From assembly GCA_964646495.1 (NCBI GenBank), contig CAZYEO010000001.1, positions 383-64,382 on the forward strand: DNA of 64,000 nucleotides, written 5' to 3'. The position numbers and the translations under genes were made by a program. How positions within the stretch are numbered: position 1 is the stretch's first letter; each line of letters opens with the position of its first letter. This stretch comes from an uncultured Muribaculaceae bacterium. Its GTDB lineage: Bacteria; Bacteroidota; Bacteroidia; Bacteroidales; Muribaculaceae. The notes beneath the pieces are model-generated. The model did no database searches and was not told where the DNA came from. It saw only the letters and a list, made by a program, of their open reading frames with translations. This document shows, in pieces, positions 4,718 through 60,050 of the stretch.

Positions 4718-4723
4718 TAAAAA

Positions 4724-5527
4724 TTATTTGTCAAGAAGTTTGTGCTTTACAATAAGTCTTATTTTCGATGGCAGCATGGCGACAAAAACTATTGAAAATC
4801 TATTTATAAATCCATTGATGTATTGTTTCTTTTTTGCAAAAGTAGCCTTTAATGCTCCACGGACAAATTTTTGAGGAGTTACCAAAACTCCCAATTTTAC
4901 CCCCAATTGTTGAAGATTTTTGGGCAATCCAAATAGATCGGTAGCAATCCCTCCGGGACAAGCTACCGTTACCGATACACCAGAATCGCTCAATTCAAGT
5001 TGGATAGCTCTCGATAGTACCCTGATATATGCTTTTGTTGCTCCATACATTGAGATTCCGGGCATTGGCATCCAGCATGACATCGACGACATATTAAGAA
5101 TATATCCATGATTGCGTTTTGCCATTTCGCTGCCGAATATGTGACATAACTCAGTTACGGCACGTATATGAAGGTCAATAAATAGGTTTATTCTCTCTTG
5201 AGACATTTCTATTAATGCCTTGAACGCAAAAATGCCGGCATTATTAATAAGAATATCCACTATTAAATTGTTCTCTGTGCACCAATTTAATATATGTGTA
5301 GCAGCATTTGGTGTCGATAAATCAATATGGAGATATGAAACAGAAACATCATAATCATGCTCAATCTCCGATGATGTGAGTCTAAGCTCCTGTTCTTGAT
5401 TGCTCACAAGAATGAGATTCACACCATTTGCAGCGAGTTGGCGAGAAAATTCCTTTCCTATTCCCGAAGACCCACCTGTGATTAAAGCTGTAGATCCTTG
5501 CGGAATTTTGTTATTTATGATGTTCAT
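4724..5527 (-). CDS. Classical SDR oxidoreductase; candidate 3-hydroxysteroid dehydrogenase
   Basis: 267 aa. It has ITGGSSGIGKEF (TGxxxGxG), INNAGI and YGATKAYIRVL (YxxxK). Its start overlaps the upstream gene by 17 nt. Confidence 0.75.
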   Translation of the reverse strand: MNIINNKIPQGSTALITGGSSGIGKEFSRQLAANGVNLILVSNQEQELRLTSSEIEHDYDVSVSYLHIDLSTPNAATHILNWCTENNLIVDILINNAGIFAFKALIEMSQERINLFIDLHIRAVTELCHIFGSEMAKRNHGYILNMSSMSCWMPMPGISMYGATKAYIRVLSRAIQLELSDSGVSVTVACPGGIATDLFGLPKNLQQLGVKLGVLVTPQKFVRGALKATFAKKKQYINGFINRFSIVFVAMLPSKIRLIVKHKLLDK

Positions 5528-11313: not shown

Positions 11314-11408
11314 ATATCTTTCGACCATATCAGACGAATATTTATAAGGAAATTCTTATAGCCTATTGTAGTTTTTCCAAAACGAAATTTTGAGGTAAAA
11401 TTCAAATT

Positions 11409-11463
11409 ATTTACTCTGCCAAATAGAATGTAAATTCATACTTCAGGCAGAGTAAATGCGTTT
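11409..11463 (+). terminator. Possible terminator hairpin after topA
   Basis: 12-bp perfect stem, atttactctgcc (11409-11420) with ggcagagtaaat (11446-11457). The loop is large (25 nt) and is followed by gcgtttt. Confidence 0.35.
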
Positions 11464-31390: not shown

Positions 31391-31433
31391 TGAATCGATG
31401 GAGCTTATTGCAATTGGGCGTTGAAATAATTAT
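31391..31433. repeat. Left copy of a perfect 43-bp direct repeat bracketing the PUL
   Basis: tgaatcgatggagcttattgcaattgggcgttgaaataattat is identical base for base to 54958-55000. Its last 4 nt overlap the stop codon of the regulator gene. Confidence 0.95.
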
Positions 31434-34351
31434 AATTTCTGGAGATATTCGGCGAGATTTGTATCTCTACTCAATTCCATCTTTTTGCGTAATCTGTACC
31501 GAGCCATTTCCACGCTTCGGAATGAAATATTCATAAGTGGTGCAATATCTTTTGAACATAGCCCCATTTTAAGATAAGCACATAGCCTCTGATCTCCCAA
31601 ATTCAGCTGTGGATACTGTTCAAGCAAGCGATTCATGTAATTTTCATAAACAATATCAAAGTTACGGATAAAATTGCGCCAATCGTCGTCGTGACTTATG
31701 CTCTCTTTTGTTATATTTTGAATTTTATTGAGTTGTTTGTTTGCCGAAATACTTAAACTACCATCATTTTCGCTTTCCTGTAATTTGGAAATCATAGCGG
31801 AAATATCCATTAATATTTCATTTTTACGAATCATATTCATGGTTATATTTGATAGCTCTTCTGATTTGCTCTTGATGTCATGCTCCAATTGTTCGTTCTT
31901 GAGGTGAGCTATTTCATAATTTTTGCGTATGGTCTCTTCTTCTGCTTTATGCTTTATTTCTTCTAATTCCTTTTCTTTGCGTTGCAGTATTGCGCGTGTG
32001 GCATCTTGGTATGATTTTTTTATGTATTTTATGGTAAATACTAATAGGATTATAAACATGATAAAATATACGCAATAAGCCCAAATACTTCTATACCAAG
32101 GAGGTAGAATTGTAATTTTTAAAGAATATTCAATGTTCTCACCATCGTATGTATCAATAGCCTTTATTCGTAATATATAGTTTCCTTCTGCCAATCGTGT
32201 GTATTCTTTGGTGTTGATGCGTGATAAAGAACTCCATTCTTCATCATATTTCTCAAGTAAACAACTGTACAGCACCGCATTTTCAGCCCGATATTCGGGC
32301 ATAGTGTAGATAAAACGCAATGAATTATGTTTATACGGTATATTTATGCATGTATCGTATTTCTCTTTCGTGGTATTGAAAATCAAAGAATCATTTTCAA
32401 CCGTTGAAAATATTTTAATTATAATATTGTGTTTTTCCTTCACATATTCTTTGTTGTCTTTTAATTTTATTTCGTAAAAACCATCTTGGTTTGAAATAAT
32501 AATTGATTGGTCGTTAATGAAATTCAAGTCGTTGAAACCGGCAATTATTTTATTAGAAAGTGGCTTGAAGCTTAATGAATCGACATCATATCCACCTCTG
32601 TTATTCCGATATGCTACCTGCAATAGATTATAAGAAATATTCCATATATCATTGTTTGTGGGTTGATATATTTTTGCACTTGGATTATTTTTGAAAAGAT
32701 TGTCTAATTTAGCATCACTTATAAATGAATCACTTTCGGCAACGTATTTGAAAAACCCTCCGGGTGAAGATATTATAAACTCATTGTTCACAATGTTAGG
32801 AATGTTATTATAATCGGCAGGAAGTCCTGTTGCTTTGTTGAATAACTTGTCAATGGTGAATTCTGATAAATTTTCGTTCAATATAAGCTTATATACACCC
32901 TTCATCCAATGTCCTATCCATATATTACCCCATTTATCTTCTATTACATTGCTCCCGGCTTCATTAAATCCATTTATTTTATTTGCTAAACTCCATACAC
33001 CGTTTTTGTTTTGGATAAGGTAGAAACTGTTATAGGTAAATGCAAGCGCATACCCCGGATGCTTTTTCAGCTTAGTTACAGACCATGTGCCGGGAATAGA
33101 TTTTATCTGCGACCATTGTCCATTTAAGTTTTGATATAATCCGGCATCGCAACATGCAAAAAGGCTTTTACCAATTGTATCAATACTCCACACTTGTCCC
33201 TTTATGATTGATTCCATTTCGGTGGGTTTTTTGTTAGACTCCAATGGATATACAGTAGAATATAGACCATGGTTAGTACCCATAAATAGAGTTTTGTCTA
33301 TGAGCAATGATGCATATCCTGCTCCATATATTGTAGGATTGCCTAATACGTTGGATATTGGAGAGTTATGCAGTACATAATCAATTCCATTGTCTAAGCC
33401 CAACCATATATTTTTAAGTTTATCTATATATATATTCAAAACGGTGTTATTTTGCATGCCGCTTAAAGTGTTGAGGAAAGTGCTCTCATTGGTATGACAG
33501 TCTTTTATTACTATTCCTAAATTCACTGTTCCGAATATTAAATTGTTATTGCTAATGGTGGCAGTAAATACTTGATTTTCTCGGAGAAAGGGATCAATAT
33601 CCAATTTTAACGGTTTTATTGAGTTTCCGTTATAACTATATACACCATCTAAAGATGTAACTATCAATAATTGATCGAATGGTAAGAAACTATTTAATAT
33701 TGCAACAACTTTTTTCCCTATTATAAATTCGTTTCCGTTTATTGGTATGAATTTATTACCGGAAAGCATATTTATCCCCTTGTTAATAGATGCCACATAT
33801 ATTTTATTGTCGATTAAGGCTGATGTAGTTATTTTATCATCGAAATGAATCGTAGAAGTTACATTGCCGTCATAACATAATAGATCGTAGTCGCTTTGAA
33901 ACCAATAATCATTATCTTTTTTGAAAATATTCCAGATTTCGGTCAAATGTATATTATCATCTTTTAGGGTAGGAATTAAACTATAATAGTCGAGGTCGCC
34001 ATTTATATTATTGTTCTGAAAATATCCAAATTCCGATGAACCACCAACGTATATACGACCATTCCTGTTGTCAATGTTTATCGAACGCACAGTTGTGTGG
34101 TTGGAATTATAGTGTTGTTCCCATGATTTACTATCAAAAGATAATAATCCTTTATCGTTGCCGAAATACATTCTCCCCAAACTATCCTGTGCAGCCGCCC
34201 AATTTTGAGTGCCAGCATTATAAAGCGATCTACTGAAATTTCTTACCAATGGATATGAAGCTTGCATTTCTAAATATGAAGATATAGCAATTATCATCAC
34301 TATGAATATCTTAAAATATCGAAATGAATGATTAAATATATCTTTTGTCAT
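31430..34351 (-). CDS. PUL regulator: periplasmic two-component-regulator-propeller / Y_Y_Y sensor domain, one TM, coiled coil and C-terminal LuxR(GerE)-type HTH (no kinase or receiver)
   Basis: 973 aa. It has repeated Reg_prop-like beta-propeller blades, a Y_Y_Y-like Ig region (YSCLLEKYDEEWS...GNYILRIKA) and a TM segment (IWAYCVYFIMFIILLVFTI). The C-terminal HTH is GDQRLCAYLKMGLCSKDIAPLMNISFRSVEMARYRLRKKM. Confidence 0.85.
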   Translation of the reverse strand: MTKDIFNHSFRYFKIFIVMIIAISSYLEMQASYPLVRNFSRSLYNAGTQNWAAAQDSLGRMYFGNDKGLLSFDSKSWEQHYNSNHTTVRSINIDNRNGRIYVGGSSEFGYFQNNNINGDLDYYSLIPTLKDDNIHLTEIWNIFKKDNDYWFQSDYDLLCYDGNVTSTIHFDDKITTSALIDNKIYVASINKGINMLSGNKFIPINGNEFIIGKKVVAILNSFLPFDQLLIVTSLDGVYSYNGNSIKPLKLDIDPFLRENQVFTATISNNNLIFGTVNLGIVIKDCHTNESTFLNTLSGMQNNTVLNIYIDKLKNIWLGLDNGIDYVLHNSPISNVLGNPTIYGAGYASLLIDKTLFMGTNHGLYSTVYPLESNKKPTEMESIIKGQVWSIDTIGKSLFACCDAGLYQNLNGQWSQIKSIPGTWSVTKLKKHPGYALAFTYNSFYLIQNKNGVWSLANKINGFNEAGSNVIEDKWGNIWIGHWMKGVYKLILNENLSEFTIDKLFNKATGLPADYNNIPNIVNNEFIISSPGGFFKYVAESDSFISDAKLDNLFKNNPSAKIYQPTNNDIWNISYNLLQVAYRNNRGGYDVDSLSFKPLSNKIIAGFNDLNFINDQSIIISNQDGFYEIKLKDNKEYVKEKHNIIIKIFSTVENDSLIFNTTKEKYDTCINIPYKHNSLRFIYTMPEYRAENAVLYSCLLEKYDEEWSSLSRINTKEYTRLAEGNYILRIKAIDTYDGENIEYSLKITILPPWYRSIWAYCVYFIMFIILLVFTIKYIKKSYQDATRAILQRKEKELEEIKHKAEEETIRKNYEIAHLKNEQLEHDIKSKSEELSNITMNMIRKNEILMDISAMISKLQESENDGSLSISANKQLNKIQNITKESISHDDDWRNFIRNFDIVYENYMNRLLEQYPQLNLGDQRLCAYLKMGLCSKDIAPLMNISFRSVEMARYRLRKKMELSRDTNLAEYLQKL

Positions 34352-48918: not shown

Positions 48919-51900
48919 ATGAACTTAACAAAAATAATCGTTGGTGCGCTTTTAATGTCGTTCTCCTTTGGGCTGTCTGCTCAAGAGCCGGTGCAGATAG
49001 GCGCAGCAAGCTATGCAGCATATCCCCCTTTATATAAAGGACGTACTGATGCACATAATGGGGACTTAAGCTCATTGATGCAGACAAAAAAGCTATATAT
49101 CAATGAATCGGATAAAATGGATGACGGACAACGTCGCCCCTTACCCACCAACGATTGGTGGACAGGTCTTATTAATGCTCCTTTTGCTGACGCTCTTTGG
49201 GCTTATCCACAAATGGTACACCCTTTTGAGGCAGGTATTACTATTAACTATCCTTCATATTGGAACGAGAATGGAACCGAAGTAAAATCAAACTCAAACA
49301 TTACCATTAAAGGTGTTAAATTCACAGCTGTGTCTGCCATAGCCCATGATTGGCATGACTGGGATGTAGAAATGCTTATGTCGGGAGCCGACGGCAAACA
49401 AGAGATGTATGTTACCTTGGCGCATGGCATCCCTTTTACTTGGATTGAACTTAAAGAATTTTCACCTCGCATTACATTTTCATCTTCTGCAGAATATTTC
49501 GACGTAGAGGGAAATAAACTTGATATTTCTGATATATTATCTTATGCCGACAACAAAATCACGGTGAAAATAGGGAGTGATTATTACGGCATATTTGTGC
49601 CTGACGCTACCGGATATAGTATAAAAGATGGAGCATTGGCATTGGTATTTGCTGAAACGAAGAAACAATTTATCTCGGTAGGAATGATGAAAAATATTTC
49701 AGACTTAAAAATTTTTGCCGAATATGCCTATTCAGTACCTCGCAAAACTACAGTTTCTTGGAATTTTGATGAATATAAAGCAGAACTCACTACTAAATGG
49801 CAAATAGATGCAGAAAACTTGCTTGATAAAGCTAAGCCTGCATTGGTGATGCAAGGATTTCTACCTCACGCCTATAAAGATGCTTTGAGTAAGCCATCCT
49901 TTCAGTCTGAGTCATATTTATCTCCTCGTGGGAGATTGAAAATTGCTACACCATCATCGGACAATATTTATACCTTCTCTTATAGATTTTCGGGTATGCT
50001 ACCATATTATGCTGCTCCCAAAGAGAATAATGCTGAAGCTAATCCGTATATCAAAGATCGCATGACAGACCTTATGACTAAATATGCCAAAAACGGCACA
50101 TTTGGTAACGATACATATTGGGGTGGTAAAGGATTGACGCAGATGGCTCTGAATATGACATTTGCACATGAAATGGGCGACGAAGAAAACTTTAAGTTGA
50201 GTAAAGATAAATTAAAAGCTAAATTGATCGACTGGCTCACCTTTACTCCCGGTGAAGAACAGGTTTTTTTCTCATATTATCCTCGGTGGGGAAGTTTGGT
50301 AGGACATGAAACATCGTATGATTCCGATGCTTTCAATGATCACCATTTTCATTATGGCTATTTTATATATTCAGGCGCGTTGTTGTGCATGATGGATAAA
50401 GATTTTAGGCTCAATTACGGACCTATGTTGCGTTTAATTGCAAAAGATTATGCCAATTGGGAACATGATGATAGCCAATTTCCTTTTTTGCGTACATTGG
50501 ATCCGTGGGCAGGTCATTCCTATGCAGGGGGTCTTGGCGACAACGCTAATAGTAATGGGAATGGACAGGAGTCATCATCGGAAGCAATGCAATCATGGGG
50601 TGCCATATATTTGCTTGGAGTTGCACTTAACGATAATGCAATGCGTGATGCCGGGATATTCGGTTGGAGTACAGAATCTCGTGCCACTGCTGAATATTGG
50701 TTTGACCGCGACCAAATACATCCTGAAAAAGAACATAACTATGACTACACCCTTTACACATCACCATATTGTACCAATCTTACCTCGAAAGGTATAGGTT
50801 GGTGGACATGGTTTAGTGGTGATGCTTTGTGGATGCATTCTATTCAATGGATGCCTGTGTCACCTTGTTTGAACTATTTGTCGCAGGATTTGGATTTCGT
50901 GAAATGGGATTATGATAAAATGATGAGTGCCACGGCATATAAATGGTTTGATGCCGTAGGTACAAATGCCCCCTTAGCTAATCAATCGGTAGGCAATGTG
51001 GTATTATGTTACATGGAGCGTTCAAATCCCGATGAAGCCGCTAAAATATTTGACAGGGCTTATGAAGAAAATTATGGGATTGCTACAGGTATTGATACCG
51101 GACATATATCATATTTTACAATTCAATCACACCGTACGTATGGTGATATAGATTTTTCGGTGCATGCAGACATCCTTACAGCTACAGCTTATAAGAAAAA
51201 GGATGGCTCGATGACATACATGGCATACAATTCGTATGATACGGAGAGGATGGTAAGATTTTTCAAAGATGGAACCACTGTAGCTACGGTGAAAGTGCCT
51301 GCACGGAGTTTGGTTGCTTACGGTGTTGCTGCTGTAGCTTCATCGGTAGTGATGGAATCAGCTGAAGGATTAATCATGCCTCCATCTGCAAAATCTTTGT
51401 TATCTGTTAGTGTTTTGGATCAATATGGGGCAACAATGGATGATGTTAAATATTCATTCGTTGTGAGTGATGCCAATCTCGCTTTTATAGATGGCAAAAA
51501 CATATTGAACATCAATGCTACTGCCACAAAAGGATCTAAATTTACCGTTACGGTTAAAGTGAATGATGATATAAAGAGTGTAATGGATTTTACAGTGAAC
51601 GACATTCCGGTGATAGCATCAGCATCCATTACTCCTCAACTTAAATATCTTGAAAAAGGTGATAAGGCTACATTTACGATTGACCCTATAGATCAATATG
51701 GCAATTTTATGAACTTGGATATTGATTGGACTATAACAAAAGGAGGCAAAAAGGTTTCAGACTCCAATGTGCTTGATGCAACTGAAATCGGCATATATGA
51801 TATTGAAGCCAATATCGGAGGGAAAAAATATACTCAACAAGTATATCTTACACCTAAATTTAACAATGTAGCCTTGAATAAAACAGCCATTTCCAGTAGT

Positions 51901-54867
51901 GAAGAAAATGTCGGAACTCCTACAAAATTTGTAAATGATGGAGATAATACTACTCGTTGGGGAAGCAATCATAATGAAAATGAATGGATATATGTGGATC
52001 TTGGCGAAAATTGTTATATATCTAAAGTAAATATAAATTGGGAAGATGCCTATGGTAGTATATATGATATTCAAATAGCATCCGATGGTGCAACGACCGA
52101 ACAATTTAATGGAATATATGCGGGCACAACTGTGAATAAAACAGTGATTTCTGAAAAAGAATGGAAAACAGTTGTTTCAGTAACCGATAATGCCAGTAAA
52201 GGTGATAATACTCAAGTTATTGGCACAGAAGGAAGATATGTGAGGATGAAAGGAATAAAACGAGCTACAAATTATGGATACTCTATTAAAGAATTTGAGG
52301 TTTTTGGTATTCCTAAATCTTTACCTCAAGATGGAATAATTGGTATTGATATATTGTCTCCCGATTTTATGGATGAAGATGATTTTGCTATACTTGAAGC
52401 AAAGGCATATACTCTTGATGGAAAAGAGATAGCAAAAGATGTTGCATGGGAGTGCGAGGCTGAAAAAGCAACAATCGACGGAAACAAATTCGCACCATCT
52501 ACCTATGGCAGAATGGAAGTAACGGCAAAGTCATCAGATGGCTACTCGGCTGTGAAAAATATCATGGTAAATGAGGTGGTTAAACTTAAATCATTGAAAA
52601 TAACTCCCGAAAACACTCAAATCCTTCTTGGAGATGATATCGCTTATTCCATATCCGGTCTTAATCAATTCGGTGGAGAATATGAATTCAATACATCAAC
52701 ACTTGCAGTAGAAATAAGCAATGTTACGGATCCTGAAAATGTATTTGTGGTAACAGACGGAAGTGCATATTACCATATGTCAGACAATACTTTTGGCTCT
52801 ACAAAGGTAGGAGATTATAATCTTAAATTTGTAAGTGGAAATGTCGTTAAAAATGTGCTTATTGGAGTGGCAGATGTGTCAAAAGCCAACTTGGCACTTA
52901 ATCGTCAAGCCACAAGTTCCTCCTCATATGGGATAAATACTGCATCTAAAATTAATGATGGCGATGTACTGACACGATGGGAAAGTGATAAAGCTGATGG
53001 TGAATATGTAACTATCGATCTTGAATCACCTTTCGTGTTGGATCGCATGAATGTGATATGGGAAGCAGCTTATGCCACAAATTACCATGTGATGGCGTCG
53101 ATGAATGGTGACGCGTGGACTAATATTTTGACTAAAACAGATGGCGATGGTGCTACTGATTCTTTCACCATATCGCCTGTGCCTGCACAATATGTGCGTC
53201 TGATATGCGACAAACGTGCCGTAGTAGATTATGCGAATAGTATTTATGAATGGGAAATTTATGGTTTATCTCGATTCACAGGAGAAAATGACAATAAAGC
53301 ACCTGTAATTTCGGGGTTTAATATCCAGCCTGACGGAGCACAACTCACAATCAAAGCTAATGCAAACGATGATTCAGGATATATATTCTATACCCTTACA
53401 CGCACCACATCGGGCGTAATAAATGGTAATCCTGTGGAGGTGTCCTCTTACTCTAAGTCGGGCGAAGAAATTTCAATTACATCCGTGGGTTTGAAAGATA
53501 ATGTAGAATATATTTATACTCTTACAGCTACCGATCCATTTGGGAATAAAAGCTCCCGTGTTATAAAACATACTGCCGAGGTGTCAATAGATGGAGTGAA
53601 TCTTGCTCTTAATAAATATGCTTATGCTTCTTCGGCCGAGAACCCGGCTTTAGTAGCTCAATACGCTGTAGATGGTAACTCAGATACGCGTTGGGGAAGT
53701 GAATTTAATGATAATGAGTGGATAACAGTGGATCTTGCAGATGCATATCTGATTGATAACATCAAAATTAAGTGGAATAACTTTGCTTTTGCTACTAATT
53801 ATGATGTGTCAGTATCAATTGATGGTGACAAATTTGATAATATATATTCCAAAGAAGGATTCGTAGGAGGTGAGGAAAATATAGTTGTATCACCGACTGC
53901 TGCTCGATATATTAGGATTGTAGGGCTTAAACGTTCATCAATATATGGTACGAGTATTGATGAGCTCGAGGTATATGGTAGCGATATGTTGTTGAGCATC
54001 ACCGGTGCCGTGAGACACAATATACGCCTTGAGGGTCGTTGGGATAATAAAATATTTGCAGCATTAGATAGTAAAGATGCTACCAGTTATGATGTAACAT
54101 CCGTAAGCCAATTCCCGGAATCGATTACTACTCTAAATCCAAATTGTTTGATATATGTTCCATCTTCCTTTACATCGGCTCTTCATCCAAATATGGTTAA
54201 GGTAAATGAGGAAAATTACCAAGCCAATTCAATAGAATTATATGATGGATTTAATTTTGAATCTCTTCACGATATTTCTGTCGGAGGCGACATGGAATTT
54301 AATAAGTCTATGACAGGCGCTGTAATTCCAATAATTTTACCATTCCCTATAGAGGGAACGGAATCCATGAAAATAGCTTTACCCGATACTGAAAGAAATG
54401 ATGCAGTGTGTTTTTATTTGTCGGAAAATAATAAAAGTGAAGCCAATCAACCAATTGTATTGAAACTCACCACATCAATCAGTAAAATTAAAGGTGCAGG
54501 TAATATATTGTATCGTTCATCGACTTCAAGAATAAACCAAATCACCGGAACATATATGTATAAACCTGCTTTCGAGGGGGAATATCGTTGGCAAAACGGA
54601 GTTTTCGTGCGTCAAATATCTGGTGACGATTTTAACCCCTTTGAGTTGGTTGTGGAATATAGCTCAAATCTCTCCTCGGAATTACCTTTGAAGGTAACCG
54701 ATGTTCCAACAGGAATTGAAGAAACGAGAGAGGATATGAATGTTATTGTAGATGTTTACAATATTTGGGGGATTAAAATACGTGCAAAAATTCTGAAATC
54801 AGAAGCCTTCAAAGGTCTTCTTCCGGGTGTTTATATATCTAATGGTGAAAAAATAATAGTGCGGTAA
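48919..54867 (+). CDS. Giant GH81 endo-beta-1,3-glucanase with Big_2 and three F5/8 type C modules and T9SS C-terminal sorting domain
   Basis: 1982 aa with a signal peptide. GH81 motifs are LPTNDWWT, FNDHHFHYGYFIYSGALL and NGQESSSEAMQSWGAIYL. The three discoidin modules lie at about 51868-52310, 52891-53265 and 53601-53982 (each ALN+xxxSS...DG...TRW...W..VDL). The C-terminus is ...LPGVYISNGEKIIVR. Confidence 0.85.
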   Translation: MNLTKIIVGALLMSFSFGLSAQEPVQIGAASYAAYPPLYKGRTDAHNGDLSSLMQTKKLYINESDKMDDGQRRPLPTNDWWTGLINAPFADALWAYPQMVHPFEAGITINYPSYWNENGTEVKSNSNITIKGVKFTAVSAIAHDWHDWDVEMLMSGADGKQEMYVTLAHGIPFTWIELKEFSPRITFSSSAEYFDVEGNKLDISDILSYADNKITVKIGSDYYGIFVPDATGYSIKDGALALVFAETKKQFISVGMMKNISDLKIFAEYAYSVPRKTTVSWNFDEYKAELTTKWQIDAENLLDKAKPALVMQGFLPHAYKDALSKPSFQSESYLSPRGRLKIATPSSDNIYTFSYRFSGMLPYYAAPKENNAEANPYIKDRMTDLMTKYAKNGTFGNDTYWGGKGLTQMALNMTFAHEMGDEENFKLSKDKLKAKLIDWLTFTPGEEQVFFSYYPRWGSLVGHETSYDSDAFNDHHFHYGYFIYSGALLCMMDKDFRLNYGPMLRLIAKDYANWEHDDSQFPFLRTLDPWAGHSYAGGLGDNANSNGNGQESSSEAMQSWGAIYLLGVALNDNAMRDAGIFGWSTESRATAEYWFDRDQIHPEKEHNYDYTLYTSPYCTNLTSKGIGWWTWFSGDALWMHSIQWMPVSPCLNYLSQDLDFVKWDYDKMMSATAYKWFDAVGTNAPLANQSVGNVVLCYMERSNPDEAAKIFDRAYEENYGIATGIDTGHISYFTIQSHRTYGDIDFSVHADILTATAYKKKDGSMTYMAYNSYDTERMVRFFKDGTTVATVKVPARSLVAYGVAAVASSVVMESAEGLIMPPSAKSLLSVSVLDQYGATMDDVKYSFVVSDANLAFIDGKNILNINATATKGSKFTVTVKVNDDIKSVMDFTVNDIPVIASASITPQLKYLEKGDKATFTIDPIDQYGNFMNLDIDWTITKGGKKVSDSNVLDATEIGIYDIEANIGGKKYTQQVYLTPKFNNVALNKTAISSSEENVGTPTKFVNDGDNTTRWGSNHNENEWIYVDLGENCYISKVNINWEDAYGSIYDIQIASDGATTEQFNGIYAGTTVNKTVISEKEWKTVVSVTDNASKGDNTQVIGTEGRYVRMKGIKRATNYGYSIKEFEVFGIPKSLPQDGIIGIDILSPDFMDEDDFAILEAKAYTLDGKEIAKDVAWECEAEKATIDGNKFAPSTYGRMEVTAKSSDGYSAVKNIMVNEVVKLKSLKITPENTQILLGDDIAYSISGLNQFGGEYEFNTSTLAVEISNVTDPENVFVVTDGSAYYHMSDNTFGSTKVGDYNLKFVSGNVVKNVLIGVADVSKANLALNRQATSSSSYGINTASKINDGDVLTRWESDKADGEYVTIDLESPFVLDRMNVIWEAAYATNYHVMASMNGDAWTNILTKTDGDGATDSFTISPVPAQYVRLICDKRAVVDYANSIYEWEIYGLSRFTGENDNKAPVISGFNIQPDGAQLTIKANANDDSGYIFYTLTRTTSGVINGNPVEVSSYSKSGEEISITSVGLKDNVEYIYTLTATDPFGNKSSRVIKHTAEVSIDGVNLALNKYAYASSAENPALVAQYAVDGNSDTRWGSEFNDNEWITVDLADAYLIDNIKIKWNNFAFATNYDVSVSIDGDKFDNIYSKEGFVGGEENIVVSPTAARYIRIVGLKRSSIYGTSIDELEVYGSDMLLSITGAVRHNIRLEGRWDNKIFAALDSKDATSYDVTSVSQFPESITTLNPNCLIYVPSSFTSALHPNMVKVNEENYQANSIELYDGFNFESLHDISVGGDMEFNKSMTGAVIPIILPFPIEGTESMKIALPDTERNDAVCFYLSENNKSEANQPIVLKLTTSISKIKGAGNILYRSSTSRINQITGTYMYKPAFEGEYRWQNGVFVRQISGDDFNPFELVVEYSSNLSSELPLKVTDVPTGIEETREDMNVIVDVYNIWGIKIRAKILKSEAFKGLLPGVYISNGEKIIVR

Positions 54868-56378: not shown

Positions 56379-56452
56379 GGTGCGGTAGTTCAGTTGGTTA
56401 GAATACCTGCCTGTCACGCAGGGGGTCGCGGGTTCGAGTCCCGTCCGCACCG
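56379..56452 (+). tRNA. tRNA-Asp (anticodon GTC)
   Basis: The cloverleaf was folded manually. Acceptor GGTGCGG/CCGCACC, D-arm GTTC..GAAT, anticodon stem CCTGC/GCAGG with loop CTGTCAC (GTC), T-arm GCGGG-TTCGAGT-CCCGT, discriminator G. CCA is not encoded. Confidence 0.95.
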
Positions 56453-56540
56453 CAGTGGAGAGAGAAGATGGACAACTTTACTTGAAAATAGTAAGTTGTC
56501 CATCCTTTCTTTGTTTAATCCCTATCGAAATTGAGGATAA
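56441..56540. repeat. Left copy of a perfect 100-bp direct repeat (attL-like): last 12 nt of tRNA-Asp plus 88 nt downstream
   Basis: It is identical base for base to 59739-59838 (checked by hand). Confidence 0.95.
56467..56516 (+). terminator. Rho-independent terminator of tRNA-Asp (inside the 100-bp repeat)
   Basis: 12-bp stem, gatggacaactt (56467-56478) with aagttgtccatc (56493-56504), followed by CTTTCTTTGTTT. It is duplicated at about 59765-59814. Confidence 0.7.
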
Positions 56541-56575
56541 TTCAAAGATATATTATTTTGATAGATTGAGCAATA

Positions 56576-57469
56576 CTATTTTACACCTTTCAACTCTCTT
56601 TCCATAGCTTCTCTACGCTTTTCAGCTTCCGAAGTAGAGTTGTCAGTTGAAGGTTTTTCTTTTACCCAAGCACCTTTATTTTCGCTATAATAGATTTTCT
56701 GTCTTGCTAATGCCTTGCAATCCGTTTCTGATAGTTCGGTATAATTCCAGTCCGTTCCGTTGTCAGGAGTGCCTAAAAAGTCATTCAAATCAACTTCTAT
56801 TTCGTTAGCGGGATTGGTCATTTTCTTTATCAGAGATTCAAAAGGCGATTCTGACGATTTTTCAAATTCTACTTTAAGGGAGACTTCCTCAGTTTTTGGA
56901 GACTCTATTTGTACTGGAGATTGATTTGCTACACGATTGCGAACTTCTACCATTTCTTTGAATGTTACATACTCACACCTAATTTTCCTGATCTTATCTA
57001 CAAAAATCTGTTTCCCAATCCTATCTATATGATCAGAATAGCCAACGCTATATAATTCGCCTTGAGGAACCTCAAATATTAAGGATAACTCTTTCTTGGT
57101 CTTGGGATTGATTGTCTCAGAGAATAACAGTGGATTCAGTCTTGATGTGAAGTTGGTTGAGACATCGTAACGGCAATCGTTATAATCAAACAAACTCAAG
57201 TCGTTTTGATACAAGGTTTGCGGCTCTTTGCTAATATTTTCGATAATGAAGTCCAATTTCATTATTGCACTTCCTTTGGGTAGACTCCATTCCCTATCTA
57301 ACGTCATTTTCATATTGGTAAGATGAAAGACTTTAAGGGTCTTATTAGGAGCAACAACCTGTTTCAAGCCATCGGATATATTAATTATTCCCATATTATA
57401 CAAAACAGAAACACCCAACCCTAAAGCAAGACATATAATAATAGCCCAAAGAAGTTTAGTTGATTTCAT
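56576..57469 (-). CDS. Membrane-anchored hypothetical protein, DUF4352-like Ig-fold ectodomain plus acidic C-terminal region
   Basis: 297 aa. It has an N-terminal TM (LLWAIIICLALGLGVSVL). The central beta-sandwich pattern (MKLDFIIENISKEPQTLYQNDLSLFDYNDCRYD...ELSLIFEVP) resembles DUF4352. It sits 3 nt downstream of the preceding gene. Confidence 0.55.
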   Translation of the reverse strand: MKSTKLLWAIIICLALGLGVSVLYNMGIINISDGLKQVVAPNKTLKVFHLTNMKMTLDREWSLPKGSAIMKLDFIIENISKEPQTLYQNDLSLFDYNDCRYDVSTNFTSRLNPLLFSETINPKTKKELSLIFEVPQGELYSVGYSDHIDRIGKQIFVDKIRKIRCEYVTFKEMVEVRNRVANQSPVQIESPKTEEVSLKVEFEKSSESPFESLIKKMTNPANEIEVDLNDFLGTPDNGTDWNYTELSETDCKALARQKIYYSENKGAWVKEKPSTDNSTSEAEKRREAMERELKGVK

Positions 57470-57472
57470 ATT

Positions 57473-57943
57473 TTATCTGTTATGAGGATATTTGTCTCGA
57501 TTGGTATTCATTTCTATGCCTGAAGAAAATTCATTTTGCTTAGGTTGAGTTTTTAGAGGTGAACTATTTGTTCTATTACCATTCGAAATATTTTCGGAAT
57601 TATTTGAATCTAAAGCTTCTTTTATCTTATCCTCTCCTAAAATAAAAACATGATTCAAGATTCCGAAAGAAACAATCTTATTGTTTTCTTGATAAGAAAT
57701 TTTACCAAGACTGAAAATGAAGTAATTATCAGTTGATAAATGGGTCTTAATGAAACCTTCCATGATAAATGAACCCAAACCACCCCATACTATACCAGCA
57801 ACCCCATCTTTGTCAGTCTTTTCTCTTACAATATCCGTAAGAAAATTATTAATAGATTCTGAATGCTCCTGCTTATTGGGGCAAGTCAGAGCAAATACGA
57901 CAATTAAGCTCACAAAAGACAAAAATATTAAAAGTTTTTTCAT
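57473..57943 (-). CDS. Small lipoprotein/membrane protein, DUF4359-like
   Basis: 156 aa from the ATG at 57943 (the track start at 57952 is TTG). It has a signal peptide with a possible lipobox (VVFALTC). The pattern NYFIFSLGKISY...SFGILNHVFI resembles DUF4359. The family call is from memory and low-confidence. Confidence 0.5.
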   Translation of the reverse strand: MKKLLIFLSFVSLIVVFALTCPNKQEHSESINNFLTDIVREKTDKDGVAGIVWGGLGSFIMEGFIKTHLSTDNYFIFSLGKISYQENNKIVSFGILNHVFILGEDKIKEALDSNNSENISNGNRTNSSPLKTQPKQNEFSSGIEMNTNRDKYPHNR

Positions 57944-58387
57944 TAATTGCAATTTTTAGCCTTTGACAACCAACGAAGGTATTATACAAAAAAGAAGTGG
58001 GCTGCCGTCCACGCCTATCAGGTATCGCCAAACACCTACATATACACGAACAAACAATCCCCCTATACGTGGAGTCATCTGTACCTTGTATATGCCCTTT
58101 TAATTTGGCAATTTCGATAGGCAAAGGCACTTCTTAAATATGTCCGTTCCGAAGAACAAATACAAAGATAACGAATTTAGATTCGCCACCAATTGTATTA
58201 CTGGCAAAATATTGCTTACACTCCGATAAGGTGGGTTTTAGTTGCTCCAAACTTGTGTTTATTCGTATTCCGCATGGGCTAAGTTAGTTGGCATTGAGCA
58301 AAAGACAAAATTCTAATTAATATTTTCTTAACAAGTCAATTAAAATTTGTACTTTCGTATATCAATACTAAAACACTACATATTAGA

Positions 58388-59593
58388 ATGAAGACTATTT
58401 TCTCAGAATATTACCCAATAAGCAAAGATGTCATTAATAATGCTTGGGACAAAGGTGTATTTTGCTATGACGCCAATGTTTTATTGAACTTATATAGGTA
58501 CTCCAATGAAACTCGAAATAAAATCTTCGAGAACATTGAATATTTTATAGGCAAAACTATAATGCCATATCAAGCTTGTTATGAGTATCACAAAAATAGA
58601 AGAAGCGTTGAGGATAGTTTATCAAATAGTTACGACGAAATAATAAAGGTTATTGAAAAAACCATTAATTCATTAGAGTCAGGAGACATTACTGGATATA
58701 GAAAACATTGTGCTTTAGATATTTATAAAGATATAATCAAACCAATAAAATTGACAGCAACAAAGGTAATTAAGAAAATTAATGATATAAAAAGTGATCA
58801 TCCTTCATTGCTAAATGCCTCGGAAATACACGAGAAAATCAGCCAACTATTCGATGGTAAAGTCTCAAATAAATTTCTCGAAGATGAACTGAAGAAGATA
58901 TATACGGAAGGCAAGATTAGATATGAAAAGAAGATTCCTCCTGGATTTGCAGACTATGATAACAAAAAGAACAAAGGTGAAAATAGCTTGTACGGAGATT
59001 TGATTATTTGGAAACACCTTATCGAAATAAGCAAGAATAAAAATTCAGATATTATTTTTGTTACAGATGATAGAAAAAAAGATTGGTGGGACATTCACCA
59101 TGGACAAACAAAAGGTGCGCTACCCGAATTATACAGTGAGTTCAAGGAACTTACATCACATAATATTTTAATATATTCGGTAGAGGACTATATGAAATAC
59201 GCTCCAGAACATTCAGAGATTGCAGTCCCTAAGAAAGTTATTAATGAAATTGAGGAGCTTAGAAAGGTTGACGAACGAAGAAAAGCCTATCTTGATTATG
59301 ATTCTCTCTCCAAAATAACGGAATACATAAATAAGCAAAATAGCGTTTGGGAGAATCTTAATAAACAAAATGAGGTTTTCAAAGCATTGAATAACTATAC
59401 TACGTTGACTGATTATTCAAAATCAATCGAAGAGTTCAATAAAACAATACAAAAGATTAACCCCAAGATTGAATATATCGAATTAATTGAAAATATGAAT
59501 AAATTCAATGCCGGTGAAACAATATGGGATAATATAAATTTCAAAAGAAAAAAGGATTTCTTTCATAACGTGGACGAAGATGATAATGAATAA
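58388..59593 (+). CDS. PIN-like domain (DUF4935-type) predicted nuclease with long helical C-terminal region
   Basis: 401 aa. The N-terminal PIN-like beta-strand with Asp is VFCYDANVLLNLY (D28). The conserved acidic cluster is IIFVTDDRKKDWW (D227/D228), after GDLIIWKHLIE. The C-terminal roughly 130 aa are Lys/Glu/Asn-rich and helical. The gene is very AT-rich. Confidence 0.65.
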   Translation: MKTIFSEYYPISKDVINNAWDKGVFCYDANVLLNLYRYSNETRNKIFENIEYFIGKTIMPYQACYEYHKNRRSVEDSLSNSYDEIIKVIEKTINSLESGDITGYRKHCALDIYKDIIKPIKLTATKVIKKINDIKSDHPSLLNASEIHEKISQLFDGKVSNKFLEDELKKIYTEGKIRYEKKIPPGFADYDNKKNKGENSLYGDLIIWKHLIEISKNKNSDIIFVTDDRKKDWWDIHHGQTKGALPELYSEFKELTSHNILIYSVEDYMKYAPEHSEIAVPKKVINEIEELRKVDERRKAYLDYDSLSKITEYINKQNSVWENLNKQNEVFKALNNYTTLTDYSKSIEEFNKTIQKINPKIEYIELIENMNKFNAGETIWDNINFKRKKDFFHNVDEDDNE

Positions 59594-59738
59594 CAAATCA
59601 AGGGCCGGTATAAGGGACGGAAATTTTGTTTATGATTGACATCCTCACGTTCCTGAATGAAAAATGCAAATCATATAATCACTTCAAAATGATTAAAATA
59701 TCAGTCAAATAAAGTCATTTGATTGCAAAAAGGAGCTA

Positions 59739-59838
59739 CCGTCCGCACCGCAGTGGAGAGAGAAGATGGACAACTTTACTTGAAAATAGTAAGTTGTCCA
59801 TCCTTTCTTTGTTTAATCCCTATCGAAATTGAGGATAA
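59739..59838. repeat. Right copy of the perfect 100-bp direct repeat (attR-like), carrying only the last 12 nt of tRNA-Asp
   Basis: It is identical to 56441-56540. It is preceded by non-tRNA sequence (aaggagcta). Confidence 0.95.
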
Positions 59839-60050
59839 GCCTGAAAAATATTAGCTTGAAAGATAATTAATCGCAATAATTTGCAAGATTTTGAATTATT
59901 ACCTGTATATTAGCCGTCCGACATATTTAATCGGTTAATTTGCTTGTTATGAGATTATAAACTGAATAGTTCTGAATACCCATTGCAAGGTTTTCTTGAG
60001 CTATTCAGTTTTGGGTTTTTATTTACGCAAAATATCCTGTATGCTTTGTG

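What the first reader, a model, noticed from the sequence alone, without database searches (positions are those of the whole stretch)
56441..59838. Integrase-less 3.2-kb islet inserted at tRNA-Asp, bounded by perfect 100-bp direct repeats
- **Repeat structure:** the last 12 nt of tRNA-Asp plus the next 88 nt (including the tRNA terminator) recur perfectly at 59739-59838. Only the left copy belongs to a complete tRNA.
- **What it suggests:** this is the attL/attR geometry left by tyrosine-integrase elements.
- **What is odd:** the 3,198-bp cargo encodes no recombinase, no excisionase and no mobilisation gene. It holds only a PIN-like nuclease gene, two small envelope-protein genes on the opposite strand, and a 435-bp non-coding spacer.
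- **Age and origin:** the cargo looks clearly more AT-rich than asnA, ald and the tRNA flanks. The 100-bp repeats have zero mismatches, which suggests a recent event.
- **Interpretation:** a tiny accessory cassette at a tRNA hotspot is where anti-phage or abortive-infection modules tend to sit. It could be a satellite-like islet mobilised in trans, or the residue of a larger element.
Basis: partly seen in the sequence, partly recalled or inferred. Interest (0 to 1): 0.78.

Follow-up and report, generated by a model that had tools for sequence, protein, structure and literature searches.

The report
Decayed tRNA-Asp island with hidden RNA
The 3.2-kb islet is the leftover cargo end of a tRNA-Asp-specific integrating element that has lost its integrase, and its supposedly non-coding spacer holds a conserved structured RNA that matches nothing in the RNA family library Rfam.

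Summary
**Observation: confirmed.**
- tRNA-Asp lies at 56379-56452.
- A perfect 100-nt direct repeat lies at 56441-56540 and 59739-59838, and occurs nowhere else in the window.
- No integrase is present in the 64 kb.

**Interpretation: partly supported.**
- The right junction (cargo|CCGTCC) is a genuine attachment-site junction.
  - Three other hosts have it at the same nucleotide, each followed by a different terminator.
  - A 7.3-kb relative (L094) is complete. It has the integrase, an excisionase-like gene, a rolling-circle Rep, PIN_8, paired GGGACGG arm repeats at both ends and 16-nt repeats.
- The left junction is not an attachment site.
  - Element homology starts exactly at 56541. In relatives this point lies 18 nt upstream of the Rep gene.
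  - It is joined to a duplicated 88-nt host flank, and arm repeats are missing there.
- The islet is therefore a decayed remnant, similar to a cis-mobilizable element. One illegitimate crossover best explains it. It is unlikely to be a satellite moved in trans.

**The spacer is not empty.**
- Positions 57957-58173 (minus strand) hold a structured RNA with strong covariation (27 pairs with compensatory changes, 94% of positions paired).
- An invariant Bacteroidetes -7 promoter box precedes it.
- It recurs in about 30 Bacteroidales mobile-element loci, upstream of unrelated genes for exported proteins.
- It has no Rfam 15 match.

**Not settled.**
- The functions of the PIN_8 nuclease and of the RNA remain inferred.
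- No genome of the same species exists, so the empty site could not be tested.

The parts
56379..56452 (+). Intact tRNA-Asp (GTC), the integration target. Its last 12 nt start the left repeat.
   Evidence: ARAGORN. Rfam tRNA, 70.2 bits.
56441..56540 (.). Left copy of the perfect 100-nt direct repeat: 12 nt of tRNA 3' end (the family's attachment-site identity starts here at CCGTCC), then 88 nt of host-type downstream sequence with a terminator-like hairpin at 56470-56501.
   Evidence: The 88 nt are absent from all 150 related loci.
56541..56575 (-). Left breakpoint and 3' untranslated tail of the DUF4352 gene. Element homology begins exactly at 56539-56541.
   Evidence: Window 56539-56877 is 85% identical to L111 3858-4196. 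In L111 this point lies 18 nt upstream of the Rep start codon. No GGGACGG arm repeats here.
56576..57469 (-). Gene for a 297-aa membrane-anchored DUF4352 protein. Its C-terminal ~60-aa motif (VDLNDF..DWNYT..KGAWVK) is shared with otherwise unrelated cargo proteins of sister elements.
   Evidence: Pfam DUF4352, E 3.6e-9. 69% identical to the L089 homologue; C-terminal matches to the L081, L094 and L105 proteins.
57473..57943 (-). Gene for a 156-aa lipoprotein-like protein with weak DUF4359 similarity. It is the first gene after the RNA and is absent from the closest relative (L089), where DUF4352 follows the RNA directly.
   Evidence: Pfam DUF4359, 24.2 bits, below the cut-off of 27. N-terminal signal with cysteine. 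Insertion relative to L089.
57957..58173 (-). Conserved structured RNA (model R1). Order along the RNA: invariant TAnnTTTG -7 box, 5' hairpin, multi-helix domain, GUGG..CCAC hairpin plus U-run, then a covarying hairpin 13 nt before the start codon of the next gene.
   Evidence: cmsearch, 191 bits. RNAalifold: 23 of 44 pairs compensatory. Covariation controls. 138 G-U pairs against 28 A-C pairs, favouring the minus strand. z = -3.3. No Rfam hit.
58174..58387 (+). Rest of the spacer, upstream region of PIN_8. Conserved only among loci that carry PIN_8, plus L122 and L138 as far as about 58312.
   Evidence: Alignments and BLAST.
58388..59593 (+). Intact gene for a 401-aa PIN_8-family (VapC-group PIN-like) predicted nuclease.
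   Evidence: Pfam PIN_8, E 2e-57. Invariant D28, E66, D189, D204, D227, D228, D232 across 19 homologues. AlphaFold pLDDT 79, with only weak PIN/VapC fold matches.
59594..59738 (+). Conserved right end of the element (the element-side arm of attR), with two arm-type repeats, GGGCCGG at 59602 and GGGACGG at 59614. They are 12 nt apart and lie 137 and 125 nt before the core.
   Evidence: 88-92% identical to the right ends of L094, L089-92 and L138. Same spacing of the repeats as in L094.
59739..59838 (.). Right copy of the 100-nt repeat: the displaced original tRNA 3' end plus the original host flank, which continues into gcctgaaaaatatt and then ald.
   Evidence: The junction ...GAGCTA|CCGTCC is shared with L094, L091 and L138.

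Best explanation
The islet is the cargo end, next to attR, of a small Bacteroidales integrative element that targets the 3' end of tRNA-Asp. It has decayed and lost its integrase.

**The intact form (L094, 7.3 kb), in order**
- tRNA-Asp
- tyrosine integrase
- excisionase-like HTH_17 gene
- an unknown gene
- a rolling-circle Rep similar to filamentous-phage gene II protein
- an exported-protein gene
- the structured leader RNA
- PIN_8
- the right end with paired arm repeats
- a 16-nt repeat of the tRNA end

**What happened in the window (inferred)**
- Everything from the integrase to Rep is gone.
- One illegitimate crossover at a patch of microhomology joined two points. The first lies between the cargo gene and Rep in an occupied copy of the locus. 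The second lies 88 nt past the tRNA end in an empty copy, either a sister chromosome after excision or incoming DNA from the same species.
- Re-insertion of an aberrantly excised circle would give the same product.
- The result is tRNA + 88 nt | cargo | 12 + 88 nt | host, which is the perfect 100-bp repeat.

**What remains**
- Two expression units survive intact:
  1. A promoter plus ~217-nt structured leader RNA driving two envelope-protein genes.
  2. A PIN_8 nuclease gene, probably a defence or addiction function.
- The islet can probably no longer excise site-specifically, because the left arm sites are missing.
- It can probably be lost by homologous recombination between the 100-bp repeats.

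**Status of each step**
- Shown: family membership, the attR junction, the position of the left breakpoint, absence of an integrase, the RNA structure.
- Inferred: the route of the rearrangement, immobility, and the functions of PIN_8, the RNA and the envelope proteins.
For: 1. **attR junction.** The right junction ...CTA|CCGTCC+tRNA end is at the same nucleotide in the window, L091, L094 and L138. Each is followed by a different host terminator.
2. **Complete relative.** L094 has tRNA-Asp, an integrase, HTH_17, Rep and PIN_8 (71% aa identity), with 16-nt repeats CCGTCCATACCGCAAA at 4036 and 11347.
3. **Arm repeats.** GGGACGG occurs four times in 21 kb of L094, as pairs 12 nt apart at both element ends. 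The window has the pair only at the right end, at identical distances of 125 and 137 nt.
4. **Left breakpoint.** Window 56539-56877 is 85% identical to L111 3858-4196. Homology starts at the repeat boundary, 18 nt upstream of Rep in L111.
5. **Host origin of the 88 nt.** They occur in none of 150 loci.
6. **Microhomology.** 17/26 matches at the two joined flanks, p about 2e-4.
7. **No integrase** in the 64 kb.
8. **Independent decay elsewhere.** L090-92 carry the same cargo between a tRNA-Asp fragment and attR, with a different left deletion running into DUF4352. An incoming integrase element sits upstream. This matches the published route of decay to a cis-mobilizable element followed by accretion (PMC5704250).
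9. **Foreign origin.** The closest PIN_8 and spacer relatives are in Alistipes and other genera at 75-87%. The host's AsnA and Ald have no relative above 79-82%.
10. **RNA.**
Against: - No genome of the same species exists in any collection. The empty site, the intermediate and the age of the event were therefore not observed.
- The rearrangement route is a reconstruction. Several routes give the same product.
- GC3 of the cargo does not differ from host genes.
- Arm-site function of GGGACGG is inferred from position only.
- No experiment or database links PIN_8, DUF4352 or the RNA to a function. PADLOC and NCBIfam gave nothing.
- The window comes from a metagenome-assembled contig, so the join was not checked against reads.
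Confidence: 0.72

Rival explanations
1. The islet is a working mini-element (a cis-mobilizable element or satellite). Both repeats serve as attachment sites, and an integrase and excisionase supplied by a related element elsewhere in the genome excise, transfer and re-insert it.
For: - Flanked by direct repeats that include the family core CCGTCC....
- attR with arm repeats is intact.
- Integrase-less versions of the same cargo exist in a second host (L090-92).
- Such elements are documented (PMC5704250).
Against: - The left side has no arm repeats and no element sequence next to the core.
- The integrase-less copies in the two hosts have different left boundaries, so they are independent decays and not one spreading unit.
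- The 88-nt flank is specific to this host.
- No integrase within 64 kb. The rest of the genome is unseen.
Confidence: 0.13
2. The islet arrived by ordinary homologous (RecA-type) single-crossover insertion of a circular DNA that already carried 100 bp of this species' tRNA-Asp flank. No site-specific step took place in this genome. This is a variant route to the same remnant and overlaps with the best explanation.
For: - Perfect identity over exactly the shared segment.
- The repeat is far longer than the family's 16-nt identity block.
- The geometry is the same as that expected from single-crossover insertion of a circle.
Against: - It still needs an earlier aberrant excision in a cell of the same species to load the 88 nt onto the circle.
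- It cannot be told apart from the crossover between sister chromosomes with present data.
Confidence: 0.25
3. Assembly artefact: the metagenome assembler joined or duplicated sequence at a repeat, and no single genome has this arrangement.
For: The window appears to come from a single 72-kb metagenome-assembled contig. Its proteins are seen on one contig only.
Against: - A chimeric join between host and foreign element would share only the ~16-nt core. It would not produce a duplicated 88-nt host flank.
- Both junctions are biologically coherent, with an exact family attR on one side and an exact gene-boundary breakpoint on the other.
- All three genes are intact.
Confidence: 0.03
4. Ancient, fixed core content: the three genes are native to this lineage and the repeat is an old local duplication.
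For: GC3 is not distinct from host genes.
Against: - Relatives that keep asnA next to tRNA-Asp (L001, L004, L006) lack these genes.
- The same cargo sits in mobile elements of Alistipes, Butyricimonas and others.
- The repeats have no mismatches.
Confidence: 0.02

Closest known systems
Cis-mobilizable elements (CIMEs): decayed integrative elements that keep their flanking attachment sites, and tandem accretion at tRNA genes (Guedon et al. 2017, PMC5704250)
   Same: - Lost integration and transfer genes.
- Sits at the 3' end of a tRNA gene between direct repeats that contain the tRNA end.
- A second host (L090) shows the published sequence of decay followed by insertion of another integrase element upstream.
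   Different: - Only attR is a complete site.
- The left site keeps the core but has lost the element-side arm.
- The repeat is inflated to 100 bp by duplicated host flank.
- Movement in cis or in trans is therefore doubtful.
Bacteroides integrative mobilizable elements that target tRNA 3' ends (NBU1 at tRNA-Leu, NBU2 at tRNA-Ser; table in PMC5704250)
   Same: - Same phylum.
- Tyrosine integrase.
- Integration into the 3' end of a tRNA gene with a short identity block. The ~13-14 bp figure is from my own knowledge.
- Carry cargo genes.
   Different: - The parent family here has no relaxase or oriT module in the loci seen.
- It has a gene II-like rolling-circle Rep.
- Integrases are often in tandem and carry an Arm-DNA-bind_5 domain.
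- It has a structured leader RNA.
- The window copy has none of the mobility genes.
[quoted passage not shown]
   Same: In sister loci the order is a tyrosine recombinase, then a conserved non-coding motif, then co-oriented short low-GC genes for exported or membrane proteins.
   Different: - Arrays here hold 1-5 genes, not up to 31.
- No repeated motif lies between the genes.
- The elements are tRNA-integrated and carry Rep.
- Recombinase identity to the rAID reference could not be tested.
- No homology to known immunity genes was found. Pfam gave nothing for 8 of 10 cargo proteins.
VapC-group PIN-like nucleases, PIN_8 cluster (Matelska et al. 2017, PMC5499597)
   Same: - Strong Pfam PIN_8 match.
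- Conserved acidic residues.
- Stands as a single gene.
   Different: - No antitoxin partner is evident.
- About 400 aa, with long helical inserts and a disordered C-terminal third.
- No solved structure closer than Foldseek E of about 0.4.
- The family's function is unknown.

Membership tests
tRNA-Asp-specific tyrosine-integrase element (L094 type) | Right junction: conserved element end abutting CCGTCC of the tRNA 3' end | tested here: met
   Window 59594-59752 is 88-92% identical to the right ends of L094, L089-92 and L138. The junction is at the same nucleotide.
tRNA-Asp-specific tyrosine-integrase element (L094 type) | Direct repeat of the tRNA 3' end at both ends, with an intact tRNA at the left | tested here: met
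   The L094 repeat is 16 nt; the window repeat is 100 nt.
tRNA-Asp-specific tyrosine-integrase element (L094 type) | Integrase (and excisionase-like gene) inside the element | tested here: not met
   No integrase homologue in the 64 kb. The cargo has three genes, none a recombinase.
tRNA-Asp-specific tyrosine-integrase element (L094 type) | Paired GGGACGG arm-type repeats at both ends | tested here: not met
   Present at 59602 and 59614 only. None near 56541.
Cis-mobilizable element (CIME) | Lost integration and transfer genes but retains functional attL and attR | tested here: inconclusive
   Loss of the genes is shown. attR is complete. attL keeps the core but lacks the element arm. Function is not testable here.
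PIN_8 (PF18476) nuclease | Profile match above the curated cut-off | tested here: met
   195.2 bits against a cut-off of 26.1.
PIN_8 (PF18476) nuclease | Conserved acidic active-site residues | tested here: met
   D28, E66, D189, D204, D227, D228 and D232 are invariant in 19 sequences. PMC5499597 lists 4-5 conserved acidic residues for the cluster.
PIN_8 (PF18476) nuclease | Nuclease activity and substrate | not testable with these tools
   No experiment. No close solved structure.
Known anti-phage defence systems (PADLOC-DB 2.0) | Any of the three cargo proteins matches a defence-system model | tested here: not met
   0 families for all three.
rAID-1 | Two or more co-directional short genes with GC of 41% or less | tested here: met
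   The two genes, 57473-57943 and 56576-57469, are both on the minus strand, with GC of 30.6% and 36.2%.
rAID-1 | Upstream XerD-like recombinase more than 44% identical to BF9343_RS08045 | not tested
   The window has no recombinase.
rAID-1 | Cargo homologous to type VI secretion immunity genes | not tested
   Only Pfam was run. DUF4352 and DUF4359 are not immunity families, and most sister cargo proteins have no family.
Any Rfam 15 RNA family (for the spacer RNA) | Covariance-model match at E of 1 or below | tested here: not met
   Only tRNA was found in the window region and in five sister loci.

The most novel reading that the evidence does not exclude
The ~217-nt element at 57957-58173 (minus strand) may be an undescribed class of structured leader RNA.
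- It is carried by a family of Bacteroidales integrative elements, and also by units linked to IS1595 transposases.
- It sits between the recombinase genes and a hot spot where unrelated genes for exported or membrane proteins are swapped in.
- It may control their expression through alternative pairings around a hairpin followed by a U-run.
- It may be the same as the conserved motif noted, but never characterised, just after the recombinase gene of rAID-1 interbacterial-defence clusters.
- If so, it would give a handle on how those clusters express or acquire genes.
Probability: 0.4. Interest if true: 0.7.

Novelty: new member of a known kind. Interest (0 to 1): 0.5.

Why it matters
- **The islet itself is ordinary.** It is a decayed tRNA-linked island. 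It is nevertheless a clean worked example of two things:
  - how a long perfect repeat can arise without a long attachment site;
  - how cargo (a PIN-like nuclease and envelope-protein genes) outlives the mobility genes.
- **The wider value lies in what the islet led to.**
  - A family of small Bacteroidales integrative elements that I did not find described. They combine tandem integrases, a gene II-like Rep and optional PIN_8.
  - A strongly covarying RNA motif with no Rfam 15 match. It precedes interchangeable genes for exported proteins and occurs in abundant gut genera (Alistipes, Butyricimonas).
- **Possible link to rAID.** If the RNA regulates or marks the cargo slot, it bears on an open question: how gut Bacteroidales acquire and express accessory defence or immunity genes. 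The authors of the rAID papers call the mechanism by which those clusters form unresolved.

Tried and rejected
1. **Empty-site test.**
   - Exact look-ups of the window's PIN_8 and Ald proteins found nothing.
   - The GTDB scan with AsnA gave at best 79% identity, with no ald beside tRNA-Asp in those loci.
   - The best Ald homologues reached 82%, and their loci show no shared gene order.
   - An exact 25-mer from the 88-nt flank was absent from JGI metagenomes.
   - The test is impossible with present data.
2. **Apparent duplicated 52-aa ORFs flanking the cassette in L090-92.** There is no DNA repeat, so this is coincidence.
3. **Plus-strand RNA or a purely DNA-level hairpin origin for Rep.** For the spacer structure, 84.3% of positions would pair on the plus strand and 81.8% by Watson-Crick pairs alone, against 94.3% on the minus strand. 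The invariant -7 box also fits minus-strand transcription. A folded single-stranded DNA site is not strictly excluded.
4. **RNA as the inverted-repeat end of an IS1595 element.** One 26-nt inverted match was found in L131, but it is not shared by L110 or L144. Not supported.
5. **RNA motif in viral contigs.** No match to the most conserved 21-mer.
6. **rAID-1 membership through integrase homologues in Bacteroides** (P0318, P0314). Their loci have neither immunity arrays nor the RNA. This gave no information.
7. **Fold search of PIN_8.** Only weak matches to PIN/VapC and a minimal RNase P. It added nothing on function.
8. **Low GC as a foreign marker.** An ordinary regulator gene in the window is just as AT-rich.
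9. **Chance matches in the metagenome scan.** Seven of the 42 pattern matches carry no motif.

Full report
**1. Observation**

- The window has a single tRNA gene, tRNA-Asp(GTC), at 56379-56452 (ARAGORN; Rfam 70.2 bits).
- Positions 56441-56540 and 59739-59838 are identical over 100 nt, 3,298 nt apart.
- The repeat starts at CCGTCC in the 3' strand of the T stem.
  - It covers the last 12 nt of the tRNA.
  - It runs 88 nt further, through a hairpin (56470-56501) and a T-rich tail.
- The 100-mer occurs only twice in the window.
- Between the copies lie:
  - a 297-aa DUF4352 gene (56576-57469, minus strand);
  - a 156-aa lipoprotein-like gene with sub-threshold DUF4359 similarity (57473-57943, minus strand);
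  - a 435-nt gap;
  - a 401-aa PIN_8 gene (58388-59593, plus strand).
- asnA and ald flank the whole.
- tblastn with seven integrases taken from related loci finds nothing in the 64 kb (best E 0.06).
- Composition supports a foreign origin only weakly.
  - The cargo is 32.8% GC against 38.0% for the window, in the lowest 2.75% of 3.2-kb windows.
  - Third-codon-position GC is no different from the flanking genes.
  - A native regulator gene at 31430-34351 is equally AT-rich.

**2. The right end is a genuine attachment-site junction of an identifiable element family**

- The closest PIN_8 proteins (71-77% identity) are in other Bacteroidales (Alistipes and others), always in places rich in integrases.
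- One of these, L094 (a 140-kb JGI contig), is a complete element. In order it has:
  - tRNA-Asp (3974-4048);
  - a tyrosine integrase (4261-5454);
  - an HTH_17 excisionase-like gene;
  - two unknown genes, one of them homologous to a gene II-like (Phage_CRI) Rep;
  - a small secreted protein gene;
  - a ~460-nt spacer;
  - PIN_8.
- In L094 the 16-nt sequence CCGTCCATACCGCAAA occurs both at the tRNA end (4036) and after PIN_8 (11347). This bounds 7.3 kb.
- The 145 nt between the PIN_8 stop codon and the repeat are 88-92% identical in the window, L094, L089-92 and L138.
- In all four, the element ends ...(G/A)(A/C)CTA and abuts CCGTCC at the same nucleotide of the tRNA.
- After the tRNA end, each host has its own different terminator.
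- In L094 the heptamer GGGACGG occurs four times in 21 kb, as two pairs 12 nt apart. One pair lies just inside each end.
- The window has the matching pair (GGGCCGG at 59602, GGGACGG at 59614) at the same 137- and 125-nt distances from the core, but only at the right end.
- I read these as arm-type binding sites for the Arm-DNA-bind_5 domain of the integrases. That reading is an inference from their position.

**3. The left end is a breakpoint, not an attachment site**

- Window 56539-56877 is 85% identical to L111/L105, an element of the Alistipes type.
- The homology begins exactly at the boundary of the left repeat (56540|56541).
- In L111 that position lies in the 55-nt gap between the cargo gene's stop codon and the start codon of Rep, 18 nt from the latter.
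- So the window kept the cargo gene's 3' tail, and everything from Rep onwards is missing.
- The 88 nt now joined there are host sequence.
  - They occur in none of 150 fetched loci (2 Mb).
  - They are not conserved even in the nearest genomes that keep asnA next to tRNA-Asp.
- The two sequences that were joined share patchy similarity: TTCAAAGATATATTATTTTGATAGAT against GCCTGAAAAATATTAGCTTGAAAGAT, 17/26 matches, empirical p about 2e-4. This is what a crossover guided by microhomology would leave.
- A single illegitimate exchange gives exactly the observed order. It would join an empty copy of the locus (tRNA + 88 nt | host) to an occupied copy at the cargo/Rep boundary.
- Re-insertion of an aberrantly excised circle that carried the 88 nt would give the same product.
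- The 100-bp repeat is thus about 12-16 nt of true attachment-site identity plus about 85 nt of duplicated host flank.
- The route is inferred. The position of the breakpoint is shown.

**4. Independent decay in another host**

- In L089-92 the same cargo (DUF4352, spacer, PIN_8; 74-80% DNA identity) lies between two landmarks:
  - an internal 43-nt fragment of tRNA-Asp (tRNA positions 25-67, ending ...CCCGTCC);
  - the attR junction.
- There the left deletion runs into the DUF4352 gene, with TCC microhomology. No integrase lies between the sites.
- In L090 an integrase gene lies just upstream of the tRNA fragment. In L089 a further element with tandem integrases has inserted into that integrase.
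- This is the sequence of decay followed by accretion described for cis-mobilizable elements (PMC5704250).
- The two hosts have different left boundaries. These are therefore separate decays that both kept the same cargo, not one mini-element spreading.
- This, together with the missing left arm sites, is why I rate movement in trans as unlikely (0.13).

**5. The 'spacer' holds a structured RNA**

*Conservation*
- The first ~220 nt of the spacer are better conserved than the PIN_8 coding sequence between the window, L089 and L094.
- A 21-nt pattern from this stretch found 42 metagenome loci. Seven were chance matches.

*Where it sits*
- In many of the real loci PIN_8 is absent and an integrase gene follows directly. 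The element therefore belongs to the backbone, and PIN_8 is optional cargo.

*Evidence for structure*
- RNAalifold on 23 non-redundant sequences (minus strand) predicts 44 pairs, 23 of them with compensatory changes.
- For a 48-pair structure, 94.3% of positions pair, against 85.3 +/- 0.6% in shuffles (0 of 500 shuffles reached the observed value).
- 27 pairs show double changes, against 16.9 in shuffles (0 of 500).
- Controls with the partners slid by 1-3 columns pair at only 36-46%.

*Which strand*
- G-U pairs outnumber A-C pairs 138 to 28 on the minus strand.
- An invariant TAnnTTTG lies at the 5' edge of the conserved block. This is the Bacteroidetes -7 promoter box; the consensus is from my own knowledge.
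- Caveat: the structure was derived by folding the minus strand, which biases the G-U count towards that strand.

*Model and independent confirmation*
- The calibrated model R1 places the RNA at 57957-58173 (minus strand) in the window.
- It finds no second copy in the window and nothing in unrelated loci.
- It scores 176.7 bits in Butyricimonas loci that were reached independently through integrase homology. There the RNA lies between the second integrase gene and a DUF4352 gene, which is followed by Rep.

*Not a known family*
- Rfam 15 has no match at E of 1 or below, either in the window or in five sister loci.

*Features at the 3' end*
- The RNA ends in a GUGG..CCAC hairpin plus a U-run.
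- The CCCAC of that hairpin can pair instead with an invariant AAGAAGUG or with an internal GUGGGU.
- A further covarying hairpin sits 13-25 nt before the next start codon.

*What follows it*
- The next gene starts at a fixed distance but is different in almost every group.
- About 21 of 24 distinct products begin with a signal peptide or a membrane helix.
- Most have no Pfam family.
- In some loci the RNA and its cargo gene face an IS1595-family transposase gene. The two flanks are conserved and the cargo between them has been swapped.

*My reading*
- The most likely role is a promoter-proximal leader that controls read-through into an interchangeable cargo slot. This is an inference.
- A free-standing small RNA or a folded single-stranded DNA site remain possible.

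**6. The cargo proteins**

- PIN_8 matches its Pfam family at E 2e-57.
- It keeps seven invariant acidic residues.
- It models with mean pLDDT 79.0 overall, high to about residue 300 and low in the C-terminal quarter.
- It has only weak fold matches, to VapC-type PIN proteins and a minimal RNase P.
- The family is listed as of unknown function (PMC5499597).
- It matches no PADLOC or NCBIfam model and only an unannotated PHROG.
- Its neighbours in Alistipes loci are typical of defence islands: an HD-domain protein resembling a dGTPase, TIR, restriction-modification genes, Mrr, Fic and DUF4435. A defence or addiction role is therefore a reasonable guess and no more.
- The DUF4352 protein shares a ~60-aa C-terminal motif with otherwise unrelated cargo proteins of sister elements.
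- In the window a second gene (DUF4359-like) sits between the RNA and DUF4352, where the closest relative has none.

**7. Comparison with known systems, and verdict**

- The closest known kind is a cis-mobilizable element, a decayed tRNA-linked island.
  - The islet meets the loss-of-genes and flanking-repeat features.
  - It fails the feature of an intact attL.
- The parent family resembles the Bacteroides NBU-type elements in its target and type of integrase. It differs in having a gene II-like Rep, often tandem integrases, and the leader RNA.
- The order recombinase, conserved motif, short low-GC genes for exported proteins recalls rAID-1 clusters (10.1101/471110; PMC12247911). The defining recombinase identity could not be tested, and two look-ups of Bacteroides integrase homologues gave no information.
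- The finding as stated is a new member of a known kind, with an ordinary mechanism of origin.
- What raises its interest is the RNA motif, which matches no Rfam family, and the element family it marks.

Noticed in passing
L110 10923-12625; L131 1917-4034; L144 3876-6407; L094 8704-8904: The RNA motif and its cargo gene repeatedly lie convergent with an IS1595-family (ISXO2-like) transposase gene. Between L110 and L144 the transposase block (80% identity) and the RNA block (94.5%) are conserved, while the cargo between them is unrelated.
   Followed up: partly
L081 6041-6054 and 15286-15299 (Alistipes finegoldii-type contigs): The PIN_8 homologue there lies in a ~9.2-kb element at tRNA-Cys, bounded by a 14-nt repeat of the tRNA 3' end (CGCTTCAGACCTCA). 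It carries tandem integrases, a gene II-like Rep and an HD-domain protein. Some samples have further integrase elements stacked at the same site.
   Followed up: partly
L089 ~11395-11438 (same right end in L090, L091, L092): All four contigs from different samples break at the same base shortly after attR. The sequence there begins GTGCGCC..., which looks like the 5' end of a group II intron, a multi-copy repeat that would stop assembly.
   Followed up: no
window 56760-56640 (minus strand; DUF4352 residues ~211-270); L081 8966-9565; L094 9027-9539; L105; L132: Cargo proteins with unrelated N-terminal parts share a C-terminal motif (I/V)xVDLND(F/Y)...DWN(Y/T)T...KGAWVK. It may be a common module that binds a partner encoded by the element.
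   Followed up: partly
L142 8394-8629 (-): A second, weak match to the RNA model (29.8 bits, E 3e-4) lies in the same locus as a strong copy (5022-5236). The locus also has a tRNA-Pro, a Bro-N protein gene and an Nmad2 protein as the gene after the RNA.
   Followed up: no
window 57473-57943 against L089 9547-9565: The DUF4359-like gene is an almost exact one-gene insertion between the RNA's 3' end and the DUF4352 start codon, with only 3 nt to the next ATG and no repeat at its borders. This suggests genes are added at the position nearest the leader.
   Followed up: partly
window 31430-34351 (-): A 973-aa gene for a regulator with a Y_Y_Y domain is the most AT-rich 3-kb stretch of the window (~31% GC), lower than the islet. 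It sits among TonB-dependent receptor genes.
   Followed up: partly
window 59914-59920: The heptamer CCGTCCG, identical to the start of the attachment-site core, recurs in the 212-nt gap between the right repeat and ald. This is probably chance for a 7-mer.
   Followed up: no
window 48919-54867 (+): A 1,982-aa secreted protein with a GH81 catalytic domain and three F5/8 type C domains lies just upstream of asnA. It looks like an ordinary polysaccharide-degradation gene.
   Followed up: no
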